A DNA stretch of 59,988 nt, filler included, from Jimgerdemannia flammicorona (Eukaryota): NCBI GenBank assembly GCA_003990765.1. It is 3 parts of 3 records of this genome, joined end to end, with 100 filler letters (N's around TTAATTAATTAA, not from the genome) between each part and the next. Parts side by side here need not be neighbours in the genome. Positions count along the whole stretch, not along the records: positions 1 to 19,936 come from RBNJ01001801.1; 2 more parts are not named here. One strand, given 5' to 3'. The notes under the pieces were generated by a model. It did no database searches. It was given only the letters and a program-made list of their open reading frames with translations, and had not been told where the DNA came from. The number at the start of each line of letters is the position of its first letter. Position 1 is the first letter of the stretch. The position numbers and the translations under genes were made by a program. Below, one piece after another: positions 5,606 through 47,087 of the stretch.

Positions 5606-5636
5606 AGGAGAGGTTTAATCTTTAACAATATTCCTC

Positions 5637-6237
5637 ATGAACAGTACAACTAACATTTTCTTGCTCAATGTGAATGGTCTTCGAGGATCTGGGTGGTGTA
5701 AGAACATTTTTACTTGGCTAAAGGGATTGGAGGCTGATCTCTTTTTACTGCAGGATGTACGGTGTAAGGATGAAGATGATCAGGTGGAATGAACTAAGGA
5801 ATGGGGTGGGGCTACTGCTTGGTTTGGAAAGGTGGTGATTCTGTTGAAGAAGGGTAGAGGAGATTTGGAAGGGATCAAGAACTGGGGATATTGACTGGTC
5901 TGGAGTGAATGGTACCAGCCAGGGTGGGAATCAGTGAGAGTGGGCTCATGCTACTGCCCAGTGGCTAGGGGAGAGAAGATTGCATGGATCAAGGAACCAC
6001 TGGAGGAGGGCATTCTTTTGGAGGATGGGGTCGATGTCCTTGGTGGTGATTTTAACATGGTTCAAGATTTGCAGTTGGATAGGACTGATGGAGGAAGAAA
6101 TGCTGGTGGGAGGAGTGGTGGTCTGGATGCATGGAAGGAGGTGGAAAACCTTAGCTCCTTAGGGGATATGGGCTGAACATGGTGGGGCGATACCAGGGTC
6201 TACACGCACTGGGTGAATGGCTTAGGGACAAGGATTG
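5637..6237 (+). pseudogene. LINE ORF2 AP-endonuclease, 5' part
   Basis: MNSTTNIFLLNVNGLRG, LLQDV, VGSCYCP, LGGDFN; ends at GTRI(D), where the LTR element is inserted. Confidence 0.88.
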
Positions 6238-8311
6238 TGTAAGGGGGTTACTTTTTAGGGTGACCGTTACGTAGTTCTGGAAGGGTTTTCTAGGAGTTCT
6301 GGATATTCTGGAAGACCGTTTTCTTATGGTCAAGATCAATTTCATATGGAGTATGTCCTCTATGCTTATTGATTTCAAGATCGGGTTGATGTCTCAACCA
6401 AAGTCCTTTTTTGGACTAGTTCTGGATGTTCAGGATTTTCCGTATTTCAGGAAGGTCAAGAAACTAAGACCAGCTTAGTTGAATTGGCGTATCGCTGCAG
6501 ACAATACCCAATTAGGAAATTTCATGACGGGGTTAGGAGTAGGACCTAACAAGGAGCAGATTTACTTAAGAGTAGTTTGTGGGTTATGGAATAGGTTTAT
6601 TTGCTATTCATGATATTGCTATACTAGGAGTAGTTGTGTGAAGGAATATTGTGGGGAAGTGCTCAGGAGTTGTGTTCGGATTATTCAAGTCTTTCAAGTC
6701 TGAGATTCTGAGGTCTGGGGGAGGGGGTATTTATACTAGTGAGGGGCTATCTGGACTATGCTGAATATGGATGTAGCACTAAGTGCCTTGCTGAGTCGGA
6801 ATACAGTCACGTAGTACAAGTGTAATCTGACATGTCAAGAGATCGTCTGACTGCTGAGTCAGTTCACAGTCACGTCGTACAAGGCTAATCTAACTATACT
6901 ATGACTGCTAGACTATTTATAGGTTTAGGCACTATCTGGGTAGTCCTCGATGACATCACCATCGATTGCATCATCTCTGGTGAAGTAGTCATCTAGGAAG
7001 AGTGGTTCGCGGATTACTTCTCCTTGTTGGCTAAGATAGTAATACATTGGGACTTCATCTCCATCCCACAGGATAGCATTGTCTGTTTCGTAAGCTGGAT
7101 AAGGTGTTGGTGGGTGAAGGATGGGTGTATTGTCTTTGCTTTCATCGGATTCGCTGTCTGCGTACCTTCTATAGGTTACAGTACTATGAGTCGCAGGGTT
7201 GTAGTAAGCTGGCGGCTGTGGTTCGAGTCGCTCGTACTCAGGTGGTGGGGTTGTTGGTTCGATCTCTAGGGTTGTTTGGAGGTACAGGTTGTGTTCTCCA
7301 GTCTCTTCATTGTAGTTGAAGTAGTCAGGGGTGAATGCGGGTTGGTATTCGTACCAGTGGTCATTGTCCCAATAAGTCTCATATGTAGTTATGAACTGTT
7401 GTAAGTTCATCAGTAAGGTTGGCGGAGTGATCAGGGTTGGCAGAGATTCTTGGCTTGAGGTTATGTCAGCGTCAGAGGGATCATTGTCTTCTGCTTCATC
7501 TTCATCGAAGTGGATTATATTGTAAACGTCCTTCATGGCATATCCGACTTGAGGCATTTGCAGGATATGGTCATCGGGGTGCGGGAAGGTTCTGTCTGTG
7601 GTTTTGACATACTTGAGGTACTTGTGGTTGATTTCTTGTATCATGTCATCGATTTGGCCATAGGACAGGGTAGTAACCATTTTGCTGATAGTGACTCGGA
7701 GGCGGGAAATAAAGGTATTGTACTCATAGAAGAGTTCTCGATGTTTGCGGGCGATAAGCTTTTGGTGTTGAGACATCTGGGTAGTATCTGTATTGTGGTG
7801 GTGTTCGACCATATCTTCTAGGAGGCGGCCGATCTGGTAGTAGCTTGAGATTTGTCCGATTCGGTGGGCCTCGCTAAGCATGTTCAGGGCATTCCATCAG
7901 GCTTCCACAAAGTAGAGGGGTGCCAGGCTATGGATATTCATGAGGGGCAGAGGGGGTGTGGCTCGGTTGACAATGGCATTCCAAATGTCAGCACGGATAC
8001 AGTTGTAGATCTCGGTGGTCATGTTTGTGTATTTGGAAGTTGTGGTTGTTGTTTGTTTTGGTTTTCTGATTTGACGCATCTTGGTGCTCGGTATATATGC
8101 ATTTGGTCCTGATTGGTAAGGTTCCGTTTGTATAGATCTTGTGTTCTGTGACTTCGTATTGACTCAGCTTTGTGTGCTGTGACTTCGGTTTGACTCAGCT
8201 TCGTGATCAAGCAGGTGATTTCCAGATTTGTTCGGAGGTCGTGTGTGATTTCAGTGGCTTTGTTCAGAGGGTGATGTGTAATTTCGGTGGCTTGGAGGTT
8301 GTGCGCTTACA
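6238..8311 (-). repeat. 3' LTR of family A (2074 bp)
   Basis: TG...CA termini; preceded on the minus strand by the PPT AAGAAGGGGAGAGT; near-identical to 14835-16899. Confidence 0.96.
6925..8022 (-). CDS. LTR(U3)-encoded accessory protein, family A (318-aa open part 6925-7881; 365 aa if the TGA at 7897-7899 is read as CGA)
   Basis: The long ORF is kept in both LTRs. The single upstream stop sits at a different codon in each LTR, so the consensus is open from MTTEIY. The ORF ends just before a TATAAATA motif. Confidence 0.75.
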
Positions 8312-8325
8312 ACTCTCCCCTTCTT
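8312..8325 (-). other. Polypurine tract (AAGAAGGGGAGAGT)
   Basis: Purine run abutting the 3' LTR; the same motif occurs at 25857-25870 in copy 3. Confidence 0.9.
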
Positions 8326-8739
8326 AGCTTTCGACGTCCTCGTCAGGGCCTTCTAATTTGTTCTAGTGTTGTTACACCATTTGGGAGGTCAAAAGTCTGG
8401 TAAGGTCCATTTTTCTCAGAAAGTGGCATGCTCGTAGTATAGTTGCCTAATGTGTTGGATTCACACATTAAAGGGTCGTGTGTTTAATGCCATGCACCGG
8501 AAGTGATTCTGATGTCGTTCACTGCTGGAGAATTTCCTCTAAGGAATCTTCTTAAATATCTATGCCTCGTTTCCCACCAGTGGTACAGAGAGAATAGGCT
8601 TGCTTTCAGTTTTGCTATTTTTTCCAGAGATTCAGTAGTCTTGTCTTGTTTTGCTGAGTTCTCAACTTGGTTCGTGATAGTTATAATGTTCAGGAGGATA
8701 ATATATAGTATGTACGGATAGGTGCAGAGTTTTTTGGTT

Positions 8740-11700
8740 CTAGTTGTTCAAGAAATCATATTCCTGAACTAGGTCAGTAGTATTCTGGAGATTGGTCTTG
8801 GGTTCCCAGGTTGCATCATGGATTGGGTAACCTTTCCATTTGACAAGGTACTCAGGATGGTTCTTGTTGCCACGTTTGTTGAGGATTTGTTCAACTTCAT
8901 ATTCTTCTTGGTCATTAATGATGACAGGTGCAGGTGGTTTGGTGGTCCGATTTGGAAATAGCTCATCATCATTGTCATTGTATCGCTTGAGACGTTGAAC
9001 ATTAAAGACTGGGTGAATCTTAATGGTATCTGGTAGTGCCAGTTTGTAGGAGGTTTGAGAGACTTATGCAATGACTTCAAATGGTTCAATGAACTTGCTG
9101 TTCAGCTTTGTGGATGGTCTGTGCTTGAGGTTATCAACTCGGTATCCTCTGATGTCTAGTAGAACTTTTTCTCCAATATCAAAAGTTTCTTCTCGGCGGT
9201 GTTGGTTAACATACTGTGACTGTTGTTCTTGAGCTCGTGATAAATTCTCAATTGCGATCTGGCTTAGATTGCGTATTCGGAGTAGGAATTCTTCAACAGC
9301 TTCGACTGTGGAGGGTTCTTCAGTAGTTCGGGTAAGTGTCAAAGGGGTGTTCGGGTTTTGTCCAGTATTAGCAAAGAATGGGGTCATTCCAAGAGAGGTT
9401 TGCTTGCTATTGTTATAGGCAAACTCGACTGTAGTGAGATGTTCATGCCAATCATCTTGTCTGTAGGAAACATAGTTCCTTAGCATTTGTTCCAGAGTTC
9501 GGTTCATTCTTTCGGTTTGGCCATCAGTTTCAGGGTGAAAGGCTGTGGATAGTGCAAGTTTCATTCCAAGGTATGCATGGAGGGTTTTCCAAAAGTGGCT
9601 GGTGAATTTCGGATCTCGGTCACTAACAATGATCTTGGGAAGACTATGATAGCGGAAGATGTTGTCAAACAAAAGTGTGGCTATGTCTGGTGCTGTTGCA
9701 GTAGTGGTAGTAGGTACAAAGTGGGCTTGTTTGCTGAGATAGTCCACAAAGACAACAATTGCATCTTTTCCGTTCTTGGTTCGGGGTAGTTGTACAATGA
9801 AGTCCATAGAGATTTGTTCCCAATTTGCAGATGGTACTGGAATAGGGTGGAGTAAGCCAGGTTTTGCTAGTGTTGAGGACTTGTTTCGTTGGCAGGCATC
9901 ACAGGAAGTGATATAGGTCTTGAGCTGATCTGCCATGCAGGGCCAATAGAAGTTTCGGGAGATAACTTCATAACATTTATCAAATCCTAAATGTCCAGCT
10001 GTAGGGGCATCATGACATTCGAATAGGATAGTCCTTCGGAGGTCTCGGTTGTTTGGAACATACAATCTGTCCTTGTAGTAGATAGCATTGTCCTTGAGTT
10101 GGTATTGATTGTACCGGGTATGCTTGTCGGTATCATCATTGTTCTGGATTTCTTGGAGTGCTTGAGCTTCTTTATCATCAACACATGCTGCGATGATTTG
10201 TTCCATGATAGTGTTGGTAACCAAGGTCAGAGTTTGGATAACTTCTTCAATTGGTGGTCTGGAGATTGCATCGGCAACGATGTTTTCCTTGCCAGAGTAG
10301 TACTGGATTTCATAGTCAAAGTTGGTGAGGACTTTCATCCATCTAGCTTGCTTTTGAGAAAGGGTAGCCTGTGTCTTGATGTTGACTAATGACTTGTGGT
10401 CAGTCAATATAGTGAAGTGTGCTCCTTCTAGATATGGTCGCCATTTGATCAGAGTGTCTACGATGGCTAGCATTTCCTTTTCGTGAGTTGCGTAGTTGAT
10501 TTCAGCATCGTTGAACTTGCGGGAGTGATAGGCCACAGGGTGTCCTTCTTGCATGAGCACTGCTCCAAGAGCTAGGTCAGAGGCATCAGTGGTGACTTCG
10601 TATAGTAGGGCAGGGTTTGCCACTTGAAGTACTGGTGTGGTTATCAGGACATCTTTCAGTACTTGAAAGGCGGTATCTTGTTCGGGTCCCCAATTTACAA
10701 GATTGTTGAAGTCTTTTTCTTGTTTCATGGTCCAAGGTTGTTCTTGTTTCTTGCTGTGCTTGGTCATTTGGGTGAGGGCAGTAGCGATTTTGGCAAAGTT
10801 GGCAACAAATCGCCTGTAATAGTTTGCTAATCCCAGAAATGATTGGAGGTCTTTCAGCTTCTTCAGTCTGGGCCAATCTTTGATTGCAGAGATTTTGCTG
10901 GGGTCCACTTTAATTCCATTCGGAGTAACAATGTGTCCAAGGAATTGAATTTCTTTCAGGAGAAATTCGCACTTGCTGAGTTTTGCAAAGAGATGGTTTT
11001 CTCAGAGTTTCAGTAGTACTAGTTCAAGGTGTTCAAGATGTTCCTCTAGGGTTTTGCTGAAGACTAGGATGTCATCAATGTAGACAACAACGAATTTGTC
11101 CAGGTATGGATACAGAATGGTATTCATCAGTGTCTGGAAGGTTGCTGGAGCATTAGTTAAGCCAAAGGACATAACCAGGAACTCGAAGTGTCCGTAGCGA
11201 GTTCGGAAAGCTGTCTTGTAGATGTCTTCTTCTTTCATGGCAATTTGCCAGTAACTATTTCACAGGTCAAAAGAGCTCATGAATTGTGGGTTGGTAAGTC
11301 TATCGAATATTTCATCGATCCTCAGTAGTGGGCAACAGTTCTTGATGGTCTGTTTATTGAGATCGCGGTAGTCGATGCACATTCGTAGGTCTCCTCCTTT
11401 CTTGACAATGAAGAGGACTGGTGCACCATAGGGTGATACGTTGGGTCTGATGAATCCTTATTCTAGGAGTTCGTCGATTTCCTTCTTGAGTGCATCAATT
11501 TCTCTCAGAGACATGTGGTAGATTGACTTGAAGGCTGGTTTGGCATCTGGAATAGTCTTGATGGCATGATCTACTGCTCGTTTCGGAGGTAGGCCTTTTG
11601 GGAGCTTCTTTGAGAATATGTCTCGGAATTTCTGGAGTAGTGATCTGACATGGCTGTCAACTTTGGAAAAATCCTCTTCAGAGTTCTCGGGTTCTCCTTT

Positions 11701-13872
11701 GGATGGTCAGATGGAGATGGTGAAGAGAGGACATTTCTTGGCCAATTTCTTGAGTTGTAGCTTGTTGATGTGGATGATCTTTGGTCCAGGGTCACTAGAG
11801 TTAAGTGAGTCCTTTTCGCCTTGTAGTTTGAAGTTGTGGCGTCCTTTCTTGATGGTTAGAGAATGGTTTACCCAATCGATCATAGGGTTCTCTTGTTTTA
11901 ACCATGGGGTTCCAAGGATGATTTCGTTGTCAGGAAGTGGTATGATTTGGAGGGTAACATGTACTCGGTAGTCGCCAATTCGGAAGGGTAGATTGCGGAC
12001 TTCTTTGCTAATAACATGTGAGGTTCCATCAGCTGTAGCAACTGCTTGAGTTTGCTGTACTGGGGAGGTGAAGACCTTGAGTCTGTTGGCTGTCTCTTTA
12101 TTGATGAAGTTGCCTGAGGCGCCACTGTCTATCATAATCTTGACAGGTGCTCTGTTGACAAAAGCCTTAAGGGTGAGCAGTTTGTCTGATCCAATGGTGG
12201 TAATTTCAGTTGTAGGAGCCTTTCTTCTGTTAGTTCTTCTTTGAGCCAGTTCGTTGACACAAGAGAAGCAATCATCAATCATTCGGGAAGAGTACATTCC
12301 AATACCATGAGGGCATCGGCCACTTGGTACATATCCATCTTCTATCTTCTTGTAGAATTGTTCTTCTTTGCTCACAGTAGGTTGGGCTGGGGCCTTGTTT
12401 GAAGAGCCAAATCCTTTGGATCCTCAGATGGTGGGCAGTAGTTCAGGGACTTCCTTGACTGTCAGGGTTGACTCGATTTTTTCGAATAGGATCTGGGCAA
12501 TGCAGAAGCCAATAGGGATCTTGAAGGGTGTCCAACTGTGGTTTCGGATGAGGACAATAATTTCGCCTATATAATCTTCCTCAATGACTCCTCCTTCTAC
12601 TGAGAGTCCTTTCAGTGCTAGGCTGCTGTGACAGCATATTCTTCCAACATGTCCTTCAGGGATTTGGATACTGATTCCTGTATAGACTTATTTGATTTCT
12701 CGGTTGGAAACTGTAGCTTCTTTGGCTGCATATAGGTCATATCCGGCTGCTTTTTGACTTCCTTTGGTTGGGGCCTTAGCAGTTTGTCTTAACTTGACAA
12801 AGTCTAGTATTCTGGTGGTCAGGTTGTTGAGGTGGTGCAGAGTAGTAACAGTTGCTCATGTTGCTGTTCGGGGTTTTCGGTTGGGGCAGACACTGGCCAT
12901 GTGTCCTGTCTTTTGGCAATAGAAGCATGCTCCGCTTCTTCGAAGTTCATTCCTTTCGCCTTCAGTGAGTTTCTTGAAGGTACTCGGCTGAGTGGGTTCA
13001 TGATTTCTGGGTGTCCACGAGGTGGATGTGGAGGGAGCTCGGGATGCTTCATACTTGGGTTCTTCTTTCTTAGTCCAAGTCTTTTCCTTGTTGTTGAATT
13101 GCCTTCAGGGCAGAATTGGTCCAGCTGTTAGGATTCGCTTGACCATAGTCTTGATTCTTGCCAGGCACCATTGTTGGTGATCGCAACCAACTGGGCAGCC
13201 TTGTTCTTGGATTTTTCTAGTAAGCCATTCAGGTAGGGCATCGAATAAATGGTCTGCTCTTGTACCATTTCGTGCTTCATCATTGGCAATGTATCCTAGG
13301 CCAACAGTGTTCAGGAGTGACTCGAGTTTTGTACAGAAGGTTTCGAATTCTTCTTTGCCATGTATGTCAAATTTGAGGTTGTGGAGTTTTACTCGAGATT
13401 TAGCAATCATGGTTTCACTGCGGTATTGAGCAATCATGAGTTGTTTGAGTCCAGGGGCTGCAGGATGGGCTCCATATCCTGGGGCATTGTTTGCTACATT
13501 CTGAGCAACCACTGCAGGTCGGGTATCCCATGTGAGGGGTTTTTCAGGAAGGGTTCGCCACCATTCTTCGGCAGGTCCTCGGAAGAATGTAACAACTCGG
13601 CGGACATAGGCTGTAGTGGTAGCGAAGAGTTGTTCCAGGGTATGGTCCTGATTGTTTGTCAGAACGCGGTCAGCAACTCGCTCATTGGTCCATTGATTGG
13701 CTTCAAAGTTGGTATCAACTACACTAATGAAGCTTTGAACTTCTTGTGCAGTACCATTGAAGGTAGGTAGGCTCAGATTTTTTGTAGGTCGGGTCTGTTC
13801 AGCTAAGGCAGTAATGGTTGCTGCCATTATAGCTACTTGGGCTGTGAGATCTAGAATCTGTTGGTTCGCCAT
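8740..13872 (-). pseudogene. gag-pol polyprotein of family A with scattered point stops
   Basis: Gag 13105-13872; CFYCQKTGHMASVC ~12885-12930; dUTPase ~12400-12805; protease IDSGAS ~12120; RT YIDD ~11075; RNase H TDASDLALG; integrase HDAPTAGH...CDACQ, SMDF, SDRD, PETDGQTE; chromodomain EEYEVEQIL...YLVKWKGY...TWEP ~8790-8910. Confidence 0.95.
12400..12805 (-). pseudogene. dut: Trimeric dUTPase domain in-frame between zinc knuckle and protease
   Basis: AAGYDLY, HSSLA (degenerate RSSLA), GGVIEEDYIGEI, IAQI, (R)GSKGFGSS match dUTPase motifs 1-5; also present at ~2820-3225 and ~24505-24915. Confidence 0.9.
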
Positions 13873-14819
13873 GTTGATTGCTGGAGACGGTTGGACTACT
13901 GGTAGTGGTGTTACTGGTACTACTTGAGGTACTGGTGCAGAGTGTGATAGGGTTCTTTGGGTCTGTGTAAGTTGCTGGAGTAGTAGTTGTAGATCTGGAG
14001 TGAGGGCTTGATAGATAGCTGTTTGTTGCTGTGTAGGTATATTCTGTCCTGATGGATGTGTGTCTCCTTCAGTAGTGTATCCGGGATCGAATTCGGTGAG
14101 ATACTCCTCCTCTTCTTCGGTTTGGTCCCCATATAATTGGGTTTGCTCGGCATCAAAGTAGACAGAATCAGTTGTATATCTGATTTCAGATGGACTTAAT
14201 TCAAAGTCAAGTTCAGGTTTGGTATTGGTTTCAGATTCAGATAGGGTTGTAGCAGGGCCTGCTTCAGGTTCGAGATCAGGTAGTTGATGAAGGGTTTCTC
14301 TTGCTTCTTCTTTCAGGATATGGCGGGCCTTGCTGTTCTGGAATCGGTAGTATAAGGCGGTCTTGGTTCTGATGCAGTGAAAGTCGGTAGAGTTGAGCCA
14401 CTTGGCTACAGAGGCTTGGGCTTCATGAGGAACTAAGGCTAGAAAGACTGCTGCTGGTTGTCCTAGATCACTCGGATTTGTAGAGCTGACAAAACTCTTG
14501 TTGAGAAGAGTAAAGAAGGCTTCAATAAGACCTTCTTCATCTTGACTTGCTGGGTATAGTGCAAGGAGTTCGGTGAATAGAGTTTCGCCTATTTGTTGGT
14601 TTAACTTGAGTACTTCTTTCTTTGAATGAAGTTTATCCCACTTGTTGCAGGTGTGGAGGTCAAATTGTCCTTGTACGTCAGGTTCAATTCTCTCCAGATT
14701 GTCAGATGGTTCAGGATAAATTTTAGTTCAGAGGTTGGGCTTTATACCAACTTGTAGGAATTCGCAGAGGGGTTTGTAGCGGGGTGAGGAAGCGTCTTGA
14801 AGCGGAATTGGATTGTAAA

Positions 14820-14831
14820 CCACTGCTACCA
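14820..14831 (-). other. Primer-binding site TGGTAGCAGTGG (probably initiator tRNA-Met)
   Basis: TGG lies 3 nt after the LTR end. TGGTAGC is complementary to the ...GCUACCA 3' end typical of initiator tRNA-Met; host tRNAs were not checked. Confidence 0.75.
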
Positions 14832-14834
14832 AGT

Positions 14835-16899
14835 TGTAAGGGGGTTACTTTTTAGGGTGACCGTTACGTAGTTCTGGAAGGGTTTTCTGGGAGTTCTGGA
14901 TATTCTGGAAGACTGTTTTCTTATGGTCAAGATCAATTTCATATGGAGTACATCCTCTATGCTTATTGATTTCAAGATCGGGTTGGCGTCTCAACCAAAG
15001 TCCTTTTTTGGACTAGTTCTGGATGTTCAGGATTTTCCGTATTTCAGAAAGGTCAAGAAACTAAGACCAGCTTAGTTGAATTGGCATATCGCTGCAGACA
15101 ATACCCAATTAGGAAATTTCGTGACGGGGTTAGGAGTAGGACCTAACAAGGAGCAGATTTACTTAAGAGTAGTTTGTGGGTTATGGAATAGGTTTATTTG
15201 CTATTCATGATATTGCTATACTAGGAGTAGTTGTGTAAAGGGATATTGTGGGGAAGTGCTCAGGAGTTGTGTTCGGATTATTCAAGTCTGAGATTCTGAG
15301 GTCTGGGGGAGGGGGTATTTATACTAGTGAGGGACTATCTGGACTATGCTGAATATGGATATAGCACTAAGTGCCTTGCTGAGTCGGAATGCAGTCATGT
15401 AGTACAAGTGTGATCTGACATGTCAAGAGATCGTCTGACTGCTGAGTCAGTTCACAGTCACGTCATACAAGGCTAATCTAACTATACTATGACTGCTAGA
15501 CTATTTATAGGTTTAGGCACTATCTGGGTAGTCCTCGATGACATCACCATCGATTGCATCATCTCTGGTGAAGTAGTCATCTAGGAAGAGTGGTTCGCAG
15601 ATTACTTCTCCTTGTTGGCTAAGGTAGTAATACATTGAGACTTCATCTCCATCCCACAGGATAGCATCATCTGTTTCGTAAGCTGGATAAGGTGTTGGTG
15701 GGCAAAGGATGGGTGTATTGTCTTCACTTTCATCAGATTTGCTGTCTGCGTACCTTCTATAGGTTACAGTACTATGAGTTGCAGGGTTGTAGTAAGCTGG
15801 TGGCTGTGGTTCGAGTTGCTCGTACTCAGGTGGTGGGGTTGTTGGTTCGATCTCTAGGGTTGTTTGGAGGTACAGGTTATGTTCTCCAGTCTCTTCATTG
15901 TAGTTGAAGTAGTCAGGGGTGAACGCGGGTTGGTATTCGTGCCAGTGGTCATTGTCCCAATAAGTCTCATATGCAGTTATGAACTGTTGTAAGTTTATCG
16001 GCAAGGTTGGCGGAGTGATCAGGGTTGGCAGAGATCCTTGGCTTGAGGTCATGTCGGCGTCAGAGGGATCATTGTCTTCTGCTTCATCTTCATCGAAGTG
16101 GATTATATCGTAAATGTCCTTCATGGCATATCCGACTTGAGGCATTTGCAGGATATGGTCATTGGGGTGTGGAAAGGTTCTGTCTGTGGTTTTGACATAC
16201 TTGAGATACTTGTGGTTGATTTCTTGTATCATGTCATCGATTTGGCTATAGGACAGGATAGCAACCATTTCGCTGGTAGTGACTCGGAGGCGGGGAATAA
16301 AGGTATTGTACTCATAGAAGAGTTCTCGATGTTTGCGGGCGATAAGCTTTTGGTGTTGAGACATCTGGGTAGTATCTGTATCATGGTGGTGTTCGACCAT
16401 GTCTTCTAGGAGGCGGCCAATCTGGTAGTAGCTTGAGATTTGTCCAATTCGGTAGGCCTCGCTAAGCATGTTCAGGGCGTTCTATCGGGCTTCCACAAAG
16501 TAGAGGGGTGCCAGGCTATGGATATTCATGAGGGGCAGAGGGGGTGTGGCTCGGTTGACAATGGCATTCCAAATGTCAGCACAGATATGGTTGTAGATCT
16601 CGGTGGTCATGTTTGTGTGTTTGGAAGTTGTGGTTGTTGTTTGTTTTGGTTTTCTGATTCGACGCGTCTTGGTGCTCGGTATATATGCATTTGGTCCTGA
16701 TTGGTAAGGTTCCGTTTGTGTAGATCTTGTGTTCCGTGACTTCGTATTGACTCAGCTTTGTGTGCTGTGACTTCGGTTTGACTCAGCTTCGTGATCAAGC
16801 AGGTGATTTCCAGATTTGTTTGGAGGTCGCATGTGATTTCAGTGGCTTTGTTCAGAGGGTGATGTATAATTTCGGTGGCTTGGAGGTTGTGTGCTTACA
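14835..16899 (-). repeat. 5' LTR of family A (2065 bp)
   Basis: TG...CA termini; followed on the minus strand by the PBS TGGTAGCAGTGG. Confidence 0.96.
15513..16610 (-). CDS. Second copy of the LTR-encoded accessory protein (open 15513-16469; TGG>TAG at 16482-16484)
   Basis: Same-length 318-aa ORF, near-identical to 6925-7881. Confidence 0.75.
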
Positions 16900-16904
16900 G
16901 ATTG

Positions 16905-21190: not shown

Positions 21191-21194
21191 CATC

Positions 21195-24100
21195 TATAAT
21201 TAGTTTTGGTGTACTGTACTATTACAAAAGGAAACTGAAGTACCAAACTCAAACTGAGATAAGAAGAACTCTATCTCATCTATCAAAGGTTCATGAACTG
21301 CACTTATCAACTCAAGACCAAGATACACCACAACTATACAAAGACCTCATTACTTAGCAGAAACAAAACACATTTGAACAACTCTGTTTGCTCTATCTGT
21401 ATCACCTCTATTGGAGAATAATAGATACTTCATCTGAACTCAAGAAAGCTGACATTGTCGAAACCAATCTCAAGCCCATCCACGTGATAGATATTACTAC
21501 TAGAAATTGTCTCAGATTATAGAAAATATCATTTCCAAGAGGTTTGAACTCCCAGCCATGAAATTGGGAGCCCTCGCTCTAGACAAGGTTGGCCAGTCCT
21601 CACAAATGTGCTAGCAGTCCAAAAAAAAGAGAACCAAGACCTGTTATCTTTGTACAACCACCACCACTGAGGACAGCCTTAATTTTACAAGAGACAGAGG
21701 TGATGATACCTTTGAAACTGATGATATCAGAAGTCAGAAAACTGCTCAGACTTTGCCAGAGATGATGTCATTAATAGTGATATCATCAAAGACTAACCAG
21801 ACAGCATCTAAATCTATAAATAGCTTAGCAGTCATAGTATAGTTAGATTAGCCTTGTATGATGTAATTATGAACTGACTCAGCAGTCAGACAATCTCTTG
21901 ATATGTCAGATCACACTTATACTATATAACTGTATTCTGACTCAGCAAAGTACTAAGTGCTACATCCATAGTCCAGATAATCCCTCACTAGTATAAATAC
22001 CCCCTCTCTCAGACCTCAGAATCTCAGACTTGAACACACAAGAACATTCCTGAATACTTCTCCACAACATTCCTTTACACAACTACTCCTAGTATAGCAA
22101 TATCATAAATAGCAAATAAACCTATTTAATAACCCACAAACCACTCTTAAGTAAATCTGCTCTCTGTTAGGTCCCACTCCTAACTATATCATGAAATTTC
22201 CTAATTGGATATTGTCTGCAGTGATACACTGATTCAACTAAGCTGGTCTTAGTTTCTTGAACTTCCTGAAATATGGAAAAACCTGAACATCCAGAACTAG
22301 TCCAAAAAAGGACTTTGGTTGAGATGTCAACCCAATCTTGAAATCAGTAAGCATAGAGGACATACTCTATACAAAATTGATCTTGACCTTAAGAAAATGG
22401 TCTTCCAGAATATCTAGAACTTCCAGAAAACCCTTCCAGAACTACATAACAGTTACTCTAACAAGTAACTCTCTTACAACTTGGTAGTAGTAGTTTACAT
22501 TCCAATTCTGCTTCAAGATGCTTCCTCACCCTGCTACAAATACCTCTGAGAATTCCTACAAGTTGGTATAAAGCCCAACCTCTGAACTGGAATTTATCCC
22601 AAACCATCTGACAATCTGGAGAGAATTGAACCTGGCATACAAGGACAATTTGACCTCCACACCTGCAATAAGTGGGACAGACTTCATTCAAAGAAAGAAG
22701 TACTCCAACTAAATCAGCAGATAGACAAAACCCTATACACCAAACTCCTTGCTCTACACCCAGCAAGTCAAGATGAAGAAGGTCTTATAAAAGCCTTCTT
22801 TACTCTTCTCATCAAGAGTTTTGTCAGCTCTATAAATCCAAGTGATCTAGGATAACCAGCAGCAGTCTTTCTAGCCTTAGTTTCTTACAAAGCCCAAGCC
22901 TCTGTAGCCAAGTAGCTCAACTCTACCAACTTTCACCATACCAGGACCATGACCACATTATACTACTAATTCCAGAATAGCAAGGCCCACCATATTCTTA
23001 AGGAAGAAGCAAGAGAAACCCTTTGTCAACAACCTGACCCTGAACCAGAAGCAGGCCCAGCTACAGTCCTACCTGAACCTGAAACCAATACTGAACCAGA
23101 ACTTGACTTTGAATTAAGTCCATCTGAAATCAGATATATAACTGATTCTGTCTACTTTGATACTGAGCAAACCCAACTACATGAGACCAAGCCAAAGAGG
23201 AGGAGGAGTATCTCAGTGAATTCAATCCTGGATATACCATCAAAGGAGACACACCTCCATTAGGACAGAACCCACCTACATAGCAATGGACAGCTATCTA
23301 TTGAGCCCTCACTCCAGATCCACAACTATTACTCCAGCAACTTACACAGACTCAAAGACCCCCATCACACTCTGCATCAATACCTCAAGTAGTACTAGTA
23401 ATACTACTATCAGTAATCCAACCATCTCTAGCAAACAATATGCAAACCAACAGATTCTAGATCTTATAGCTCAGATAGCCATAATGGCAGCAACCATTAC
23501 TGCCTTAGCTGAATAGACCTGACCAACCAAAAATCTGAGCCTACCTATCTTCAATGGTACTGCTCAAGAAGTCCAAAGCTCCATTAGTGTAGTTGACACT
23601 AACTTCAAAGCCAATCAATGGACCAATGAGCAAGTTGCTGACCACCTTCTGACAAACAATTAAGACCACACTCTGGAACAACTCTTTGCTACTACTATGG
23701 TCTATGTCTATCGAGTTGTTACATTCTTCTGAGGACCTGTTGAAGAATGGTGGTGAACCCTTCCTGAAAAACCCCTCACATTGGATACTCAACCTGCAGT
23801 AGTTGCCCAGAATGCAGCAAACAATGCCCCAGGATATGGAGCCCATCCTGCAGCCTCTGGACTGAAATAACTCATGATTGCTCAATACCACAGCAAAACC
23901 ATGATTGCCAAATCTCAAGTTAAACTCCACAACCTAAAATTTGATATATATGGCAAGGAGGAATTTGAAACCTTTTGTACAAAACTCGAGTCACTTCTAA
24001 ACACTGTTGGCCTAGGATACATTGCCAATGATGAAGCATGAAATGGTACAAGAGCAGACCATTTATTCAATGTACTACTGGAATAGCTTACTAGAAAAAT

Positions 24101-27100
24101 CAGAGAACAAGGACACCTAGTTAGTTGTGACCACCAATAATGGTGCCTGGTAAGAATCAAGACTATGGTCAAGCAAATTCTGACAGCTAGACCAATTCTG
24201 CCCTAAAGACAATTTCAACAACAAGGAAAAAACTTGGACTAAGAAAGAAGAACCCAAATATGAAGCACCCTGAGCTCCATCCACATCTACCTCTTGGACA
24301 CCCCGAAATCATGAACCCACCCAACTGAGTATCTTCAAGAAACTTACTGAAGGAGAAAGAAATGAACTTTGAAGAAACAGAGCAAGCTTCTATTGCTGAA
24401 AGACAGGACATATGGCCAGTGCCTACCCTAACTGAAAACCCCAAACAGCAATATGAGCAACTGTTACTACTCTGTACTACCTCAATAACCTGACTACAAG
24501 AATACTGAACTTTGTCAAGTTAAGACCAACTGCTAAGGCCCCAACCAAAGGAAGTCAAAAGGTAGCTGGATATGACCTGTATGCAGCTGAAGAAACTACA
24601 GTTTTCAACCAAAAAATCAAGCAAGTCTACACAGGAATCAGTATCCAAATCCCTGAAGAACATATTGGAAGAATATGCTATCACAGTAGCCTAGCATTGA
24701 AAGAACTCTCAGTAGAATGAGGAGTCATTGATGAAGATTACACAGGAAAAATTATTGTTCTCATCTGAAATCATAGTTGGATACCCTTCAAGATCCCCAT
24801 TGGTTTCTGTATCGCACAGATCCTATTTGAGAAAATCAAGTCAACTCTGACAGTTAAAGAAGTCCCTGAACTACTACCTACCATCTGAGAATCCAAAGGA
24901 TTTGACTCATCAAACAAGGCCCCAGCCCAACCTACCACAAGCAAAGAAGAACAATTCTACAAGAAAATTGAAGACAGATATGTACTCAGTGGCCAATACC
25001 CCCATGGTATTGGAATATACTCTTTCCAAATGATTGATGATTGCTTCTCTTATATCAATGAACTGGCTCAAAGAAGAACCAACAGAAGGAAAACTCCTAT
25101 AACCAAAATCACCACCATTGGATCAGACAAACTGCTTACACTTCAAGCTTTTGTCAACTGAGCACCTGTCAAGATTATGATAGATAGTGGTGCCTCAGGC
25201 AACTTCATCAATAAAGAAACAGCCAACAGACTCAAGGTCCTGACATCTCCAGTACAACAAACTCAAGCAGTTGCTACAGCTGATAGAACCTCTCATGTCA
25301 TTAGCAAGGAAGTCTGCAACCTGCCCCTCTGAATTGATGACTACTAAGTATATGTTACCCTCTAGATTGTACCACTTCCTGATAATGAAATCATCCTTGA
25401 AACTCTATGGTTAAAACAAGAGAACCTTATGATCGATCAGATAAACCATTTTCTGACTATTAAGAAAGGATGCCACAACTTCAAACTACAAGGCAAAAAG
25501 GACCCACTCAGTTCCAGTGACCCTGGACCAAAGATCACCCATACCAATAAGCTACAGCTTAAGAAATTGGCCAAGAAATGCCCTCTTTTTGCTATCTCCA
25601 TCCACCCATCCAAAGGAGAACCCAAGAACTCTGAAGAAGACTTTTCCAAAGTTGACAACTATATCAGACCCTTATCCCAGAAAGTCCAAGACACATTTCT
25701 GAATTGAACTGCAAAACCACCTGCACCTGTCATTATTAATGATCAAGAAGAATACAAAGTTAAACAAATCCTCAACAAACATTGCCACAAGAATCATCCA
25801 AATGATACAACAACACTAGATCAAATTAGAAGACCCCAATGAGGACATTGAAAGCTAAGAAGGGGAGAGTTGTAAGCACACAACCTCCAAGCCACCAAAA
25901 TCGCATATCATCCTCAGAACTAAATTGGAAACCACATGTGAGACTACAAAACAAGTTACTAAAGAGATCACCTGATTACATAAAATACACCAGCAAGCAC
26001 ACGAACCTACTATCAAGACACAAGAATACTAGAAGAAGTACTATAACTATAAGACTGATCCTGAATATCTACAACTAGTTTTGATATACTGTACTATTAT
26101 AAAAGGAAACTGAAGTACCAAACTCAAACTGAGACAAGAAGAACCCTATCTCATCTATCAAAGGTTCATGAACTGCACTTATCAACTCAAGACCAAGATA
26201 TATTGCAACTATACAAAGACCTCATTACTTAGCAGAAGCAAAACATATTTGAACAACTTCGTTCACTTTATCTATATCACCTCTGTTGGAAAATAACAGA
26301 TGCTTCATCTAAACTCAAAAAAGCTGACATTGTTGAAACCAATCTCAAGCCTATCTATGTGACAGATATTACTACTAGAAATTGCCTCAGATTACAGAAA
26401 ATATCATTTCTGAGAGATTTGAACCCCCAGCTATAACATTGAGAGCTCTTGCCCTAGACAAGGATGACCAGTCCTCGCAAATGCACCAGCAGTTTAAAAA
26501 AAAAGAGAACCAAGACTTGTTATCCTTGTACAACCACCACCACTGAGAATAGCCTTAATTTTGCAAGAGACAGAGGTGATGACACCTTTGAAACTAATGA
26601 TATCAGAAGTCAAAAAACTGCTCAGACTTTGCCAGAGATGATGTTATCAATAGTAATATCATCAAAGACTAACCAGACAGTATCTAAATCTATAAATAGC
26701 TTAGCAGTCATAATATAGTTAGATTAGCCTTGTATGACATGACTGTGAACTGACTCAGCAGTCAGACAATCCTGTGACATATCGGATCACACTTATACTA
26801 TATGACTGCATTCTGACTCAGCAAAGCACTAAGTGCTACATCCATAGTCTAGATAGCCCCTTACTAGTATAAATACTCCCTCCCCCAGACCTCAGAATCT
26901 CAGACTCAAATATATAAGAACATTCCTGAACACTTCCCCACAACATCCCTTCACACAACTACTCCTAATATAGCAATATCATGAATAGTAAATAAACCTA
27001 TTTAATAACCCACAAACCACTCTTAAGTAAATCCACTCTCCATTAGATCCCACTCCTAACTCCATCATGAAATTTCCTAATTAGGTATTGTCTGCAGCTA

Positions 27101-27354
27101 TATGCTGATTCAACTAAGCTAGTCTTAGTTTCTTGAACTTCCTGAAATACAGAAAAACCTGAATATCCAGAACTAGTCTAAAAAAGGACTTTGGTTGAAA
27201 TATCAATCTAATCTTGAAATCAATAAGCATAGAGGACATACTCCATATGAAATTGATCTTGACCTTAAGAAAACAGTCTTCCAGAATATCTAGAACTTCC
27301 AGAAAACCCTTCCAGAACTACGTAATAGTTATTCTAACAAGTAACCCTCTTACA
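21195..27354 (+). mobile_element. Ty3/gypsy family A, copy 3: deletion derivative (gag-NC-dUTPase-PR, lacks RT/RH/IN) with variant LTRs
   Basis: 5' LTR (truncated on the left) ends 22478, then TGGTAG PBS. Gag, dUTPase and IDSGAS follow. At ~25690 the sequence jumps to chromodomain-proximal DNA. PPT 25857-25870; 3' LTR 25871-27354 (TGTAAG...TTACA). Confidence 0.92.
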
Positions 27355-27759
27355 ACATAGGTTATCAAAGAAGTAAGATAGGGATTTAATGAAAGGATCC
27401 CAAAGAGATAGTATATTAAAGATATATATTACTCAATTAGGCAATTATATATATATATTATATAATTATAGAATTCATTGTATATACAATATCTTGTCCT
27501 CTTTTCCTTATGCTCAATTATCTTCACTATCATACAGTTTTACTCCCACCCACCTCTCTATTTATATATATATTATATATTGGGTTCTTTGAAACTGACT
27601 GATATAATGTATTCAAGACAGAAACATTCCTCATACACACATTCACTCAAATATGCAAACTTATACACATCTAATTTATTATTATATATAATCTAGTATA
27701 AGGGTGGCAGCTATGAGTGGGTATGGGTTATCAAAGGAGTAAGATGGGGATTTAACTTA

Positions 27760-35050: not shown

Positions 35051-37401
35051 ATTGCTGGTCACTCCTCAACCTGGTATGTTCTTATTATCTTTATATATCT
35101 TATATATACTATTACAAGAGAGAATACTTTGATATAGTAGTGGTAAAGGTAACTTAGATGAGTGTTTTGACAAACAGAAGCAAATATCTTACAAATTGTT
35201 TTCTCTTGACTATATATTACAACTACTTTAGTACTTACAAACTCCAGATATTTAATATTATGTTGAACTTTTGAACTATGCATCATTATGGCTAGAAACC
35301 TTTAGAGGAGTTTTCATTAATGATCTCTATAAGGCAATCAAGGCAGCAAAACCCAATGACATTATCTGTAACTATAACTAGCTGATCCTCCTTATCACTC
35401 ATCCTGATGCTGAGAGCAATGATATACTAGATAATGATCTTCTTGAATAATATAGTGATATTAACACACTCATATAACATTATAAAATCATGAGGGTAAA
35501 TCCCATTAAGGTTAAACTGTCCCTGAGTCAAAACTTATAAGAAACAATATCTTTACAAACCCTTGATAAGTTTTTTAAAATTGTATTACAATTTATCATT
35601 TTACATTATGAATATATATCTAATGCATTATTGGATTAACTAGATTATATTTTATCTACCATATCACTATCAAAGTATTCAAGAGTTGACTTACTATCTA
35701 GTAAGCCAAATATATTGAGCTGAATATTAAGAGAAACAACACCCACACCAACTCCTGATAAGTATATATTTTAATAATTATATTTGATATGTGATACTTA
35801 TAATATATGGATACTTATTAATATTATATTAGATTCAATAGGTTATATTACATCTACTGTATCACTATCTAAGTATTCCAGGATTGCAGAAGCTACATAT
35901 AGAAGAGCTTTGTAATAAGATCTCATTATATTTGATATGTAAAGAGATAGATCTGTATAAACAATTGCTGGTAGTTAGTGTAATAGTTGTATATGAAACT
36001 GTATTACATAGATATAAGTGGAAATATAATGATCTTAATGATAATGAAGATAATATTCAAACAGAAAGCATAAAATTTCTATACTTTTATGGTATAAATA
36101 AAAGATGTACTTGTTCTTAATTATATTGGGGTTCCTGCAGCAAAGAAAATTATTAAAATAATCAAGAGATGACTTGTTATATTTATTTAATATTTCTTTC
36201 TATTGACTTGATAATTATTTCCCAGAGCAGACAGAGTAAGACAATATATCTGATAATATACCTAGTATCATTCCTAAATATAGATAATTCAATGATGATA
36301 ATATAAGGTTATACATTATTATATTACTATTTATCAAAACAAACCTAGTATTAATAATTGTATTTTTTCTACTTAGAAATTAGAATTTTCTTTGAGTATT
36401 ATAGTACTTAGAAGAAAAACAATATCAATTAACTATATAATTCCAAATAACAGTCCATCTGCAGCAACAGTGACAGATTTATCATATATTCCCTCTTCTC
36501 CTAATTCAGATATCAGTGAAGAATCTATCATTAAGATAAATAAGAATAGTGATATAAATTATTTTGTTGGACCTAGTGAAATTGAATAGAGCCTGGATGA
36601 TTGTCTATCTTGAGTAAATATTTTATATTTTACACAATGTTTATATTATATATATGATTTATATTTATCATATTATTTATCTTCCAATGATAGATCATAG
36701 ATGAAGTTGACATCTCAAATATATGTCATGAATATTGAACAGTAATTATTAGAAAGTATAAGTCAATAAAAGTTTATCTAGCAGCTCTTGAAGAACTGTA
36801 GGTATTTAATTTTAGTATCTAATTATATAGTTAATATTGATATATTGAAATAATATAGCCAAACTATTTTCTTCACAGAGCTTTAAGCTATATATTTGTT
36901 TTTTAAAAAGAGAATCTGCATGATCTATATGGATATTTCGATGACAATCTCTGGAGAAATTTGTTTATTAAATTCCGAAACCTGTATCCATATTTATCTA
37001 TCTCAGATAATATCCTTCAGATATTCACTAACACTATTAGTGAGATTTCAAAAAATACCTCTTTCTTTATATAAGTATTCCTGCTCTAATATTATGATTT
37101 TGAGTTTAGATTATATATAAGAATCCAAATTATCAAAACTATAAAGCCATTATATATAGTGTAACGGTGACCCCAGAATGATGACATCAGCACAGGAGAC
37201 AGCCTTTCCTTACAAGCCACCAGATCGAAGCACAAGAAGATCATATGGCATATGAGATGAGCAATGATGACCAACTGTGAGTCATTGTGACCACAGCACA
37301 AGTATCCTGAAGAATATAAAAGAAGGATCAAGGAACCGCAGTAGCAGCAACCAACAAGAACCACCAATCCCAAAATAGCTCAAAGACTTACTACAAATGA
37401 A

Positions 37402-38229
37402 ATGCCTGCCGCCTGCCAAACCTCAAGGTCAAGGAAACACCAAGGTACCTCGGTCGAAGAAAGGATGTTCCAAGACATCAGAAGAGCCATGGAGACCCAC
37501 TCAAGAAGGACTCCTAGTGTCAACCTAGGTACTGCAGACCCCTATCACTTCATCCTCTACCGCTGTGAAATGGAAACAAGGATCACCATTGCCACCGAAT
37601 ACCTCCAAATATGGCAGGAGTACAAAATAGGAAACCTCCTCTGCCGGGAGTTCCCACAGGCCAGCCCTCAAGAGCTACAAGATGCCACTCCCATAGACCT
37701 ATGAGAAGCAAGGACAGCAAAGAAGATCCATCAGATCTTCAGGCATGCACCATAGTCGATTCCCAACTTGGAGTATGTTAGAGTCTCAGATTTCAGAGAC
37801 CTGTCATCTCGCCGCATCAATGCACTAGAAGCCAGGGTGGCTACAGAAGCCCAGTCCACTATCACCCTCAACAGTGAAGAAGTAGAAGACTTCTGGTACC
37901 CCATCCTTCAGGACAACCCAGACCAATTCCTGCAAGGATTGATCTCAGTATTCCAAGGCCCAAGCATCTGGGTTAGATCCCCCCAAGACCCCACATTTGT
38001 CCCCTATTTTGTGGAAGAGAACCTCATAGACTGGAGAGCTCCAGATCTTGTCCCCGATTTCCCCGCCGAACGTGATGACATCATCGGTGATGACGTCATC
38101 CTGCATGACATTGACATACCCAAAGTACGCGAGATGTATGACCTGCATGACAAATTCGCAGATCTCATCTCCTTCAGTGATGATGATGATGATGATGAAG
38201 CCCCCATGGTCCTGAAATTTCTGCTCTAA
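37402..38229 (+). pseudogene. LTR-encoded accessory ORF, family B (275 codons, two in-frame point stops)
   Basis: ORFs 37402-37704 and 37768-38229 are in the same frame. The linker reads *EARTAKKIHQIFRHAP*SIPNL, with stops explicable as CGA>TGA and TGG/CAG>TAG. Confidence 0.72.
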
Positions 38230-38792
38230 GTTCTTTGTTACACTGAATAATGCCAGCACCAGTATTCTGAGGTGACGCGAAATTGTTCCAGCATCAGCAT
38301 TTTGATATGATACTGGATAATGCCAGCATCCTGAACCTGTACAACCAACAATACCAGCCCTGGAACTTAGTAGTTTTAGTTATTGGAACTTATATTTAGC
38401 TTTATATCTTAGCAACCATTGAATTATATTTTGTATAAATACTCCTCTTATTTCCTCTGAAATAAAGTCAGTTCCTCTCAGTGCAATACACACTTCCTTG
38501 CAAGCAATCTAAGAGATAACAAGACAGTTAAAAAGATAAGAAGTTTGAGGACTATAAGACCTTAGGAAGGCACTCCAATAAGAACTTGCTTATAACAACT
38601 TGAGTTAGTCTAAGAGATATATCTTGAAGAGAATCTGACATATTCGAAGGACTCAGCGACCACTACGTGACAACTTGGTGCCCATTGGCTGGTGATTCAA
38701 GATGAATCCCTCACTTTCAAGCTGAAAAACGAACAACCCCCACAACAACTACCCTGACTACAAGAGTTACCCCTGCAAGAATTCAAGACAAG

Positions 38793-46580: not shown

Positions 46581-47087
46581 TCAGTCATCATCCCAATAGG
46601 CATAAGCTGCTTCTGCATCTATATCTATCCCATCATCTTTATTGTCTGTATCAGGGTCACTCTATTCTAGCTCTAGATCTTCTTCTTGTCCTTTGGGAAA
46701 CAGGATGTCTACTTGTTGGAGAATACTCTGAAAGGTGGTCTCATTCATCTGATGAATATCATTGAGATAGAAGTGAGATTGCACTAGGGCTCCAACATTT
46801 CGTTTGTATAGAGTGTAGATTTGTTTGGCAGTTCTGACTTCTCGGCAGGTTATCCCAGCTAGTCCTCCAATATATGGTTGTTCTTCAAGTAATTGTCTGA
46901 TGTTGTAGAAGGCCTGTAGATGGTGGATCTGTAACAATCTTTGGGTGATGGCAAGGTTCTCTTGATGCTTTTGGATCAATTGTATCAGGGTTCCTTCAAG
47001 TTGGCAGAACTGGGGTAAGAGAACTGGTAGGGCCTAGAAGGAGCTGAGAACCAATGTCTGGAGGTGCTGATCAATCCTTTGGCTCAT
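46581..47087 (-). pseudogene. Accessory ORF3 of family C, between the polyprotein stop and the PPT
   Basis: The ATG overlaps the upstream TGA. Reads MSQRIDQHLQ...AFYNIRQLLE...REVRTAKQIYTLY..., then an acidic tail; two point stops and a probable late frameshift. Confidence 0.7.

What the first reader, a model, noticed from the sequence alone, without database searches (positions are those of the whole stretch)
6925..8022. A ~365-codon gene sits wholly inside a 2-kb LTR and is duplicated at every insertion
Seen: both LTRs keep the 318-codon frame without indels. The only upstream stops are at different adjacent codons (GCC TGA TGG in the 3' LTR, GCC CGA TAG in the 5' LTR), so the ancestral read is A-R-W and the ORF was open from MTTEIY. 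It ends right before TATAAATA. Inference: it lies in U3, could be expressed only from the 3' LTR copy (splicing or an internal promoter), and solo LTRs would spread it as a standalone gene.
Basis: partly seen in the sequence, partly recalled or inferred. Interest (0 to 1): 0.7.

Follow-up and report, generated by a model that had tools for sequence, protein, structure and literature searches.

The report
Real gene inside retrotransposon terminal repeats
A very abundant jumping gene in a probably fungal genome carries an extra protein-coding gene of unknown family inside its terminal repeats, a region normally used only for control signals, and related jumping genes carry the same gene either inside or just outside that repeat.

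Summary
Observation confirmed. The 365-codon frame lies wholly inside both 2.07-kb LTRs of a full-length dUTPase- and chromodomain-bearing Ty3/gypsy element (5-bp TSD, PBS, PPT). The family gives thousands of first-look matches in the genome. In copies chosen without regard to the ORF, shared variants show purifying selection like integrase (45 synonymous : 17 non-synonymous; non-CpG variants 9:8:38 by codon position). Indels are over tenfold rarer than in non-coding flanks. A pol-deleted derivative keeps only the LTR ends and lacks the ORF, so the ORF is in U3 and not needed in cis. Its N-terminal ~140 residues are distantly homologous to extra ORFs of three other Ty3 families here: one inside U3, two between integrase and the PPT. 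The U3 family D is sister by integrase to the internal family C, so the gene has crossed the LTR boundary more than once. '3' LTR only' is not supported: a conserved CCAAT/TATA precedes the ATG in every LTR, and solo LTRs carry the ORF. No known family or fold was found. Best guess: a helical regulator with an acidic tail acting on the element's own transcription (about 0.4). No RNA data were available.

The parts
6238..8311 (-). 3' LTR, 2074 nt, TG..CA
14835..16899 (-). 5' LTR, 2065 nt; 75 differences from the 3' LTR, all transitions
6925..8022 (-). ORF A in the 3' LTR (365 codons; broken by a stop at codon 42). N-terminal ~140-aa helical domain, acidic Pro/aromatic-rich C-terminal part
15513..16610 (-). 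ORF A in the 5' LTR (broken by a stop at codon 43)
8092..8116 (-). CCAAT (8116-8112) and TATATA (8097-8092): candidate promoter of ORF A inside U3 (inferred)
6914..6921 (-). TATAAATA 3 nt after the ORF stop (candidate genomic promoter 1)
6728..6735 (-). second TATAAATA (candidate genomic promoter 2)
6596..6601 (-). AATAAA, candidate poly(A) signal, 39 of 39 copies
8312..8325 (-). polypurine tract abutting the 3' LTR
14823..14831 (-). primer-binding-site-like TGG motif after the 5' LTR
6233..6237 (.). target-site duplication (partner 16900-16904)
12850..14727 (-). gag region with weak Retrotrans_gag match and CCHC zinc knuckle
12394..12810 (-). dUTPase domain (PF00692, E 9e-33), with stops
11707..12423 (-). 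aspartic protease frame
10939..11457 (-). reverse transcriptase (PF00078, E 8e-32), with stops
8740..11001 (-). RNase H, integrase, SH3-like region and chromodomain
21192..27356 (+). non-autonomous derivative B: 1486-nt LTR (25871-27356) sharing only ~70 nt at the 5' end and the 3' ~740 nt with the A LTR; no ORF in its U3; RT-RNase H-integrase deleted
37160..38672 (+). 5' LTR of family D with a homologous U3 ORF at 37465-38229 (other contig in the window)
46581..47087 (-). family E homologue, single copy between integrase and the 3' LTR (which starts at 46541) of the element 45216-51989 (other contig)

Best explanation
ORF A is an accessory gene of a chromoviral Ty3/gypsy element. It was taken into U3, most simply when plus-strand priming moved to a purine tract upstream of a gene that lay between pol and the LTR. 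The LTR is then a two-part cassette. An upstream CCAAT/TATA drives a short ORF mRNA ending at the LTR's AATAAA in any LTR (5', 3' or solo). A downstream TATA drives the genomic RNA. The protein most likely works in the nucleus as a regulator of its own element: a small helical domain with a basic helix binds DNA or chromatin, and an acidic aromatic tail recruits transcription or anti-silencing machinery, keeping the LTR active in a genome that methylates repeats. SHOWN: coding constraint (~0.95), U3 location and dispensability in cis (~0.9), homology across four Ty3 families and two positions (~0.85). INFERRED: own promoter (~0.6), PPT shift as the route (~0.6), regulator or anti-silencing function (~0.4).
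For: Selection: in the set chosen by an internal fragment, shared variants are 45 synonymous: 17 non-synonymous (ratio 0.10; integrase 0.05; non-coding controls about 0.5; shifted frames 1.6). Fisher p 4e-4 against pooled non-coding controls; non-CpG variants 9:8:38 by codon position, p 3e-8, like integrase 7:4:33. Indels 3.1 per 10 kb against 41 and 73 in non-coding parts. Both halves are constrained. Linkage: 23 of 30 sampled 3' LTRs are A-type with integrase-region DNA upstream; 6 of 30 are ORF-less and all 6 lack RT-RNase H-integrase; 1 is a chimera. Homology: each family scores 17-30 bits on a profile of the other three, above all 955-987 scored shuffles (max 8.8-12.0). C, D and E ORFs show third-position excess (15:13:59, 41:30:79, 52:33:99). 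Position: A and D inside both LTRs; C and E single, ending ~37-39 nt before the 3' LTR. D groups with C by integrase at 100/98 support, apart from A. Protein: helical N-terminal part in a low-confidence model. Last 40 residues have net charge -9 to -18 with 4-7 aromatics in A, D and E. No transmembrane segment (max 19-residue hydropathy 0.03-1.11). 44 of 75 LTR-LTR differences are in CpG context; mCG on TEs is reported for the AM fungus Rhizophagus (PMC8647823, passages).
Against: No expression data were seen. No Pfam, NCBIfam or PHROG family and no PDB sequence match, so DNA binding is not shown. The DUF1016_N lead (Atlas structure row, TM 0.43/0.52, under the tool's bar) failed a profile comparison (E 0.08-0.44, no better than reversed controls). 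Family C lacks the acidic tail (net charge -1). AT-only motifs are protected from C-to-T decay, so 54 of 54 for TATATA is weak evidence (another AT hexamer is 38 of 38). A factor acting freely in trans should be eroded by cheaters, so strong constraint implies cis preference, which fits an RNA- or particle-bound cofactor as well. C, D and E were found through weak hits of the A profile (E 1.5-4.8), so the homology test is partly circular; pairwise hhalign probabilities are only 1-11%. The integrase tree has one degenerate D row, midpoint rooting and long branches.
Confidence: 0.42

Rival explanations
1. Same gene, but the protein is a cis-preferring replication cofactor (binds Gag or the genomic RNA; helps RNA export, particle assembly or nuclear entry of the cDNA) rather than a transcription regulator.
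For: Constraint as strong as on integrase is easiest to keep under cis preference. It is lost together with RT and integrase in derivative B. In C and E it abuts the end of pol.
Against: Derivative B keeps gag, dUTPase and protease DNA yet lost the ORF. Solo LTRs carry the whole cassette with a candidate promoter.
Confidence: 0.25
2. Copy-number control or exclusion factor: resident LTRs, solos included, express it to limit further insertions or competing elements, as endogenous MMTV sag genes protect against related virus.
For: U3 placement multiplies the gene and leaves it in solo LTRs. Endogenous MMTVs keep intact sag (PMC3026287, passages).
Against: Genomic copies decay neutrally after insertion: singleton variants are near the non-coding baseline in the ORF-picked set (0.51), the two window LTRs differ 20:8:20 by codon position, and 0 of 22 junction-picked copies are intact. 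So constraint acts on replicating lineages, not on resident copies. The families reached thousands of matches.
Confidence: 0.12
3. One reading: translated only from the 3' LTR through a spliced or internal subgenomic RNA, as for MMTV sag.
For: [quoted passage not shown] ORF3s of LTR elements are typically spliced units (PMC5408684, passages). C and E homologues have no room for a separate promoter outside pol.
Against: No AG with a pyrimidine tract (12 or more of 18) in the 600 nt upstream of the ATG. A CCAAT/TATA is present in U3. An out-of-frame ATG lies just upstream of the TATA in 50 of 54 copies and would hinder scanning on longer RNAs.
Confidence: 0.3
4. env-like or membrane protein for cell-to-cell spread.
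For: C and E homologues occupy the env position, in sense, between pol and the 3' LTR.
Against: No hydrophobic 19-residue segment, no signal-like N-terminus, one cysteine.
Confidence: 0.03
5. Chance open frame or a recently captured passenger sequence in a long U3, not under selection.
For: Most genomic copies are broken. U3 regions are known to vary between subfamilies without coding (crapaud, PMC10787394, passages).
Against: Codon-position and synonymous bias, indel avoidance, a 66%-identical relative from another sample and distant homologues.
Confidence: 0.02

Closest known systems
MMTV sag (superantigen ORF in the 3' LTR)
   Same: A whole accessory ORF inside an unusually long LTR, duplicated at both ends (PMC3026287, passages).
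   Different: Sag is in a vertebrate retrovirus, acts at the cell surface and is made from spliced RNAs. Here the carrier is a Ty3/gypsy retrotransposon, the protein has no membrane segment, no sequence likeness was found, and a promoter inside U3 is suggested.
Additional ORFs (aORFs) of LTR retrotransposons: Athila/Bagy2 env-like, Grande/RIRE2/Retand antisense, Botrytis Boty, bdelloid ORF3s
   Same: A conserved extra gene of unknown function downstream of pol, kept in most copies; a nuclear regulatory role is proposed for some (PMC7264820 main text; PMC11963269 and PMC5408684 passages). Families C and E here fit the sense, pol-to-3'LTR class.
   Different: Those are described in the internal region. 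ORF A and D lie inside U3, are duplicated and survive in solo LTRs. No TRP28, env, GDSL or DEDDy match.
dUTPase-bearing fungal chromoviruses (PosPlaTy3 of Postia, Phanerochaete and Tuber elements)
   Same: Ty3/gypsy domain order with chromodomain and dUTPase (PMC2864245, passages).
   Different: No LTR-internal gene appears in the passages seen. The paper's figure legend lists an 'add. ORF' whose position I could not see, and its supplement was not read.
crapaud of Podospora (chromovirus with subfamily-specific U3 halves)
   Same: Subfamilies share the 3' LTR half and differ in U3 (PMC10787394, passages), as A and B do here.
   Different: Its variable U3 is under 200 bp and is discussed as promoter or enhancer; here it is 1.3 kb and coding.
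VANC anti-silencing proteins of Arabidopsis VANDAL transposons; foamy-virus Tas and lentiviral nef (the last two recalled)
   Same: Functional analogies only: element-encoded factors that counter silencing or transactivate (VANC: PMC5735166, search listing and abstract start only).
   Different: No sequence or structural link was tested positive. VANC is in DNA transposons.
DUF1016_N (YhcG N-terminal helical domain, PF17761)
   Same: Best Atlas structure row for an E-type relative (TM 0.43/0.52, 102 residues aligned), with a similar Y-x-I-G-x-x-L/I motif.
   Different: Below the tool's bar. Profile comparison not significant. PF17761 finds nothing in the genome.

Membership tests
Ty3/gypsy chromovirus (carrier element) | Direct LTRs with TG..CA ends and a 4-6 bp target-site duplication | tested here: met
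Ty3/gypsy chromovirus (carrier element) | Domain order gag, protease, RT, RNase H, integrase | tested here: met
Ty3/gypsy chromovirus (carrier element) | Chromodomain at the integrase C-terminus | tested here: met
   PF00385 E 7e-18
Ty3/gypsy chromovirus (carrier element) | Placement in a named chromoviral clade (Tcn1, MarY1 and others) by RT phylogeny | not tested
   No reference elements in hand; the tree holds only this genome's integrases
Conserved additional ORF (aORF) of LTR retrotransposons | Present in most copies of the family and conserved like gag/pol | tested here: met
Conserved additional ORF (aORF) of LTR retrotransposons | Located in the internal region (between pol and 3' LTR, or upstream of gag) | tested here: not met
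   A and D are inside the LTR; met for homologues C and E
Conserved additional ORF (aORF) of LTR retrotransposons | Transcribed as its own or a spliced unit | not testable with these tools
   no RNA holder listed
env / env-like ORF3 | Signal peptide and transmembrane segment(s) | tested here: not met
   max 19-residue hydropathy 0.86 for ORF A; at most 1.11 in relatives
MMTV sag | ORF inside the LTR | tested here: met
MMTV sag | Sequence homology to Sag and membrane anchoring | tested here: not met
   no Pfam hit; no hydrophobic segment
DUF1016_N (PF17761) | Score above the family cut-off or a significant profile match | tested here: not met
DUF1016_N (PF17761) | Same fold | tested here: inconclusive
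   Atlas TM 0.43/0.52 under the bar; own models pLDDT 31 and 50
VANC-like anti-silencing / Tas-like transactivator (works-like claim) | Binds own element DNA and raises its transcription or lowers its methylation | not testable with these tools
   inference from charge pattern and position only

The most novel reading that the evidence does not exclude
An undescribed family of retrotransposon accessory proteins is shared by deeply diverged Ty3 lineages of early-diverging fungi and has repeatedly moved from the pol-LTR interval into U3. This turns the LTR into a self-contained, self-promoted gene for a sequence-specific anti-silencing or transactivating factor, which 5', 3' and solo LTRs can all express and which pol-less derivatives exploit in trans.
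Probability: 0.25. Interest if true: 0.85.

Novelty: new variant of a known kind. Interest (0 to 1): 0.64.

Why it matters
LTRs of retrotransposons are treated as non-coding and are masked or ignored in annotation, and gag-pol is held to be sufficient for transposition. Here a gene as constrained as integrase sits in U3 of a family with thousands of matches, and its homologues occur in at least four Ty3 families of one genome. The sister pair C (internal) and D (U3) gives a natural test of how retroviral layouts such as sag-in-U3 arise by a shift of the LTR boundary. If the protein counters silencing, it would help explain LTR-driven genome growth in methylating soil fungi, and solo LTRs would be gene cassettes rather than inert scars.

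Tried and rejected
Expression: no RNA holder listed. Contigs of 4 public runs from 4 studies cover the LTR, which shows presence only. Homologue searches with ORF A alone: 1 hit (P0001, 66%). The HMMER scan of 1.84 billion representatives gave P0003 (95%), P0001 and three repeat proteins that I rejected on inspection. Metagenome contig scan: none confirmed. Atlas features for ORF A: nothing usable. Profile search of longer proteins: none. Alignment-based metagenome scan could not run. Structure: AlphaFold pLDDT 31 (full length) and 50 (N-terminal domain). Foldseek on viral models: no E below 0.9. VIA-align best Z 5.9 on generic helices. No fold is claimed. DUF1016_N link not supported by hhalign. 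A likeness to DUF3102 is recalled only; no Pfam hit. Derivative B's U3 as a second cargo ORF: rejected. All three frames carry stops in at least 90% of 30 copies within two indel-free stretches, and no homology to ORF A was found. The phase test on B is blurred by indels and was not relied on. Two RT translations were out of frame, and the 'RT' rows used such a frame and were ignored. The two window LTRs alone give no third-position excess (20:8:20), so that simple test is uninformative. Phage tblastn: chance hits only. Host identity was not established; 'probably fungal, Mucoromycota/Glomeromycotina-like' rests on a Crinkler domain in the window, AT-rich background, soil holders and one sub-threshold Atlas row. 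Literature: nine searches gave no report of a whole gene inside a retrotransposon U3. The library lacks most subscription papers, and the supplement of PMC2864245 (structures of 150+ fungal elements) was not read and may bear on novelty.

Full report
1. Observation. The window is three joined contigs; the finding lies on the first. A full-length LTR element runs on the minus strand from 16899 to 6238. Its LTRs are 2065 and 2074 nt, 96% identical, with TG..CA ends, a CAATC duplication, a TGG primer-site motif and a purine tract. The internal region holds gag with a CCHC knuckle, dUTPase, protease, RT, RNase H, integrase and a chromodomain. Both LTRs carry a 365-codon frame at LTR nt 290-1387 without indels, each broken by one stop, at codon 42 or 43. 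TATAAATA follows 3 nt after the stop; a second one lies at nt 1577 and AATAAA at nt 1711.

2. Abundance and state. The ORF region gives 3580-5172 first-look candidates in the 231-Mb genome (not copy numbers). An exact PPT-LTR junction pattern matches 515 times, the control 0 times. Among 59 copies picked through the ORF, 51 are full length and 19 of these are unbroken; no stop is fixed. Unbiased samples are more decayed: 2 of 16 near-full copies are stop-free, and 0 of 22 junction-picked copies are free of both stops and frameshifts. The two window LTRs differ by 75 transitions and no transversion, 44 in CpG context, distributed 20:8:20 over codon positions. This is post-insertion decay and says nothing on selection.

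3. Is it a gene? I used 30 loci picked by a non-coding internal fragment. Variants shared by at least a quarter of copies fall 17:7:49 over codon positions in the ORF, 8:3:38 in integrase, and evenly in non-coding controls. Indels are 3.1 per 10 kb in the ORF, 1.4 in integrase, 41 and 73 in non-coding parts. Shared variants are 45 synonymous to 17 non-synonymous, a ratio of 0.10 against 0.05 for integrase, about 0.5 for non-coding DNA read as codons, and 1.6 for shifted frames. With CpG-prone columns removed the bias stays (9:8:38, p 3e-8). Both halves of the protein are constrained.

4. U3 location and cis need. A derivative family B (window 21192-27356; 2179 first-look candidates) shares only about 70 nt at the LTR start and the last ~740 nt, which include both TATA boxes and the AATAAA. 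Its different U3 has no long frame and its RT-RNase H-integrase region is deleted. Of 30 sampled 3' LTRs, 23 are A-type with integrase-region DNA upstream, 6 are B-type and all 6 are pol-deleted, and 1 is a chimera. So the cis signals lie downstream of the ORF, the ORF is in U3, and it travels with autonomy. Caveat: B has AT-rich motifs of its own in U3, and no start site was mapped.

5. Expression. No RNA holder was listed. Upstream of the ATG, inside U3, lie CCAAT (53 of 54 copies) and TATATA (54 of 54), then an A/C-rich leader. An out-of-frame ATG sits just before the TATA, and no strong splice acceptor was found in 600 nt. AT-only motifs resist C-to-T decay, so this is suggestive only. Family D independently has TATAAAA about 155 nt before its U3 ORF in 7 of 7 copies. 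Seven of 59 copies are solo LTRs, 6 with perfect duplications and 3 stop-free. I therefore favour (0.6) a cassette usable from any LTR over the 3'-only spliced route (0.3).

6. The protein family. ORF A alone finds only two relatives, from ENA and JGI. Earlier AI notes on this genome (leads only) mentioned homologous U3 genes in other families, so I scanned 400 kb of other contigs plus the fetched loci. Weak hits (E 1.5-4.8) led to three families, C, D and E (first-look candidates 2529, 6093, 1294). They align on a Y-x-I/L-G-x-x-L helix and an A-x-K/R-I-x-x-L-F/Y helix. Pairwise hhalign is weak (E 0.003-0.05; reversed 0.04-0.92). Each family, however, scores 17-30 bits on a profile of the other three, above all of about 960-990 shuffles; this is partly circular for A. 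All three show third-position bias. A profile search adds 13 E-type proteins from ENA and JGI. D lies inside both LTRs; C and E lie once, between integrase and the PPT, ending about 37-39 nt before the 3' LTR. By integrase, D groups with C (100/98), E is next, and A is in a separate chromoviral group (13 rows, midpoint root, one degenerate D row, long branches flagged). The simplest reading is that the gene crossed the PPT boundary at least twice; the direction is not shown.

7. Function. No Pfam, NCBIfam, PHROG or PDB match was found. Models are unreliable (pLDDT 31 and 50) and fold searches give only generic helices. The Atlas's best structural row for an E-type protein is DUF1016_N, under its bar, and a direct profile test failed. 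What the sequences show is a soluble helical domain with a basic helix and, in A, D and E but not C, an acidic aromatic tail. From established knowledge (recalled), that pattern is typical of DNA-binding regulators with acidic activation domains. With CpG-driven decay in this genome, and TE methylation reported in an AM fungus (PMC8647823, passages), I commit to a regulator or anti-silencing role at about 0.4. A cis-acting replication cofactor (0.25) and copy-number control (0.12) are the main rivals; env-like (0.03) and chance (0.02) are disfavoured.

8. Comparison and novelty. The layout works like MMTV sag (PMC3026287, passages) but the protein is not Sag. The gene class is that of retrotransposon aORFs, which the review PMC7264820 (main text read) and PMC11963269 and PMC5408684 (passages) place in the internal region. 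dUTPase-bearing fungal chromoviruses are known (PMC2864245, passages; supplement not read), as is U3 swapping between subfamilies (PMC10787394, passages). PMC1189080 (passages) describes the YhcG N-terminal domain as helical and of unknown structure. Nine literature searches found no whole gene inside a retrotransposon U3, within a library that lacks most subscription papers. The same idea recurs in at least nine earlier notes of this scan on this genome, which is not independent support. Verdict: a real, selected, undescribed accessory gene in an unusual position; new variant of a known kind; interest 0.64. The host is probably an early-diverging soil fungus, but this was not established.

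Noticed in passing
window 19937-20036 and 39964-40063: The window is three contigs joined by N runs; only 1-19936 is the contig that holds the element.
   Followed up: yes
window 7-3481 +: Another copy of the family cut by the contig start: LTR end plus gag region, 91% identical.
   Followed up: partly
window 5620-6237 and 18059-18946 +: The element is inserted into a G-rich non-LTR (LINE-like) element: an endonuclease-like frame on the left (motifs recalled) and an RVT_1 match on the right.
   Followed up: no
window 34329-34856 +: Crinkler N-terminal domain (PF20147, E 1e-8), a hint at the host group.
   Followed up: no
window 57655-58968 -: Caspase-domain ORF (PF00656, E 1e-11) next to a 33-nt tandem repeat at 58731-58895.
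   Followed up: no
L144, L146, L130: Chimeric or nested LTRs: an A LTR switching to a B LTR after 211 or 1312 nt, and family C DNA following nt 280 of an A LTR.
   Followed up: partly
window 6925-6986: Derivative B keeps the last ~60 nt of ORF A just before the TATA; this may be an overlapping promoter element (inference). Family D's protein has a similar RDD-I-x-D motif near its end.
   Followed up: partly
window 45216-46541 and 50675-51989 -: The LTRs of the family E element contain short internal repeats and long stop-poor stretches; not tested for coding.
   Followed up: no
window 6238-16899: All 75 differences between the two LTRs are transitions, 44 in CpG context and the rest also C-to-T or G-to-A, which points to methylation-driven decay.
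   Followed up: partly
window 40679-40897 and 43834-44073: Palindromic ~215-nt repeat pair, MITE-like.
   Followed up: no
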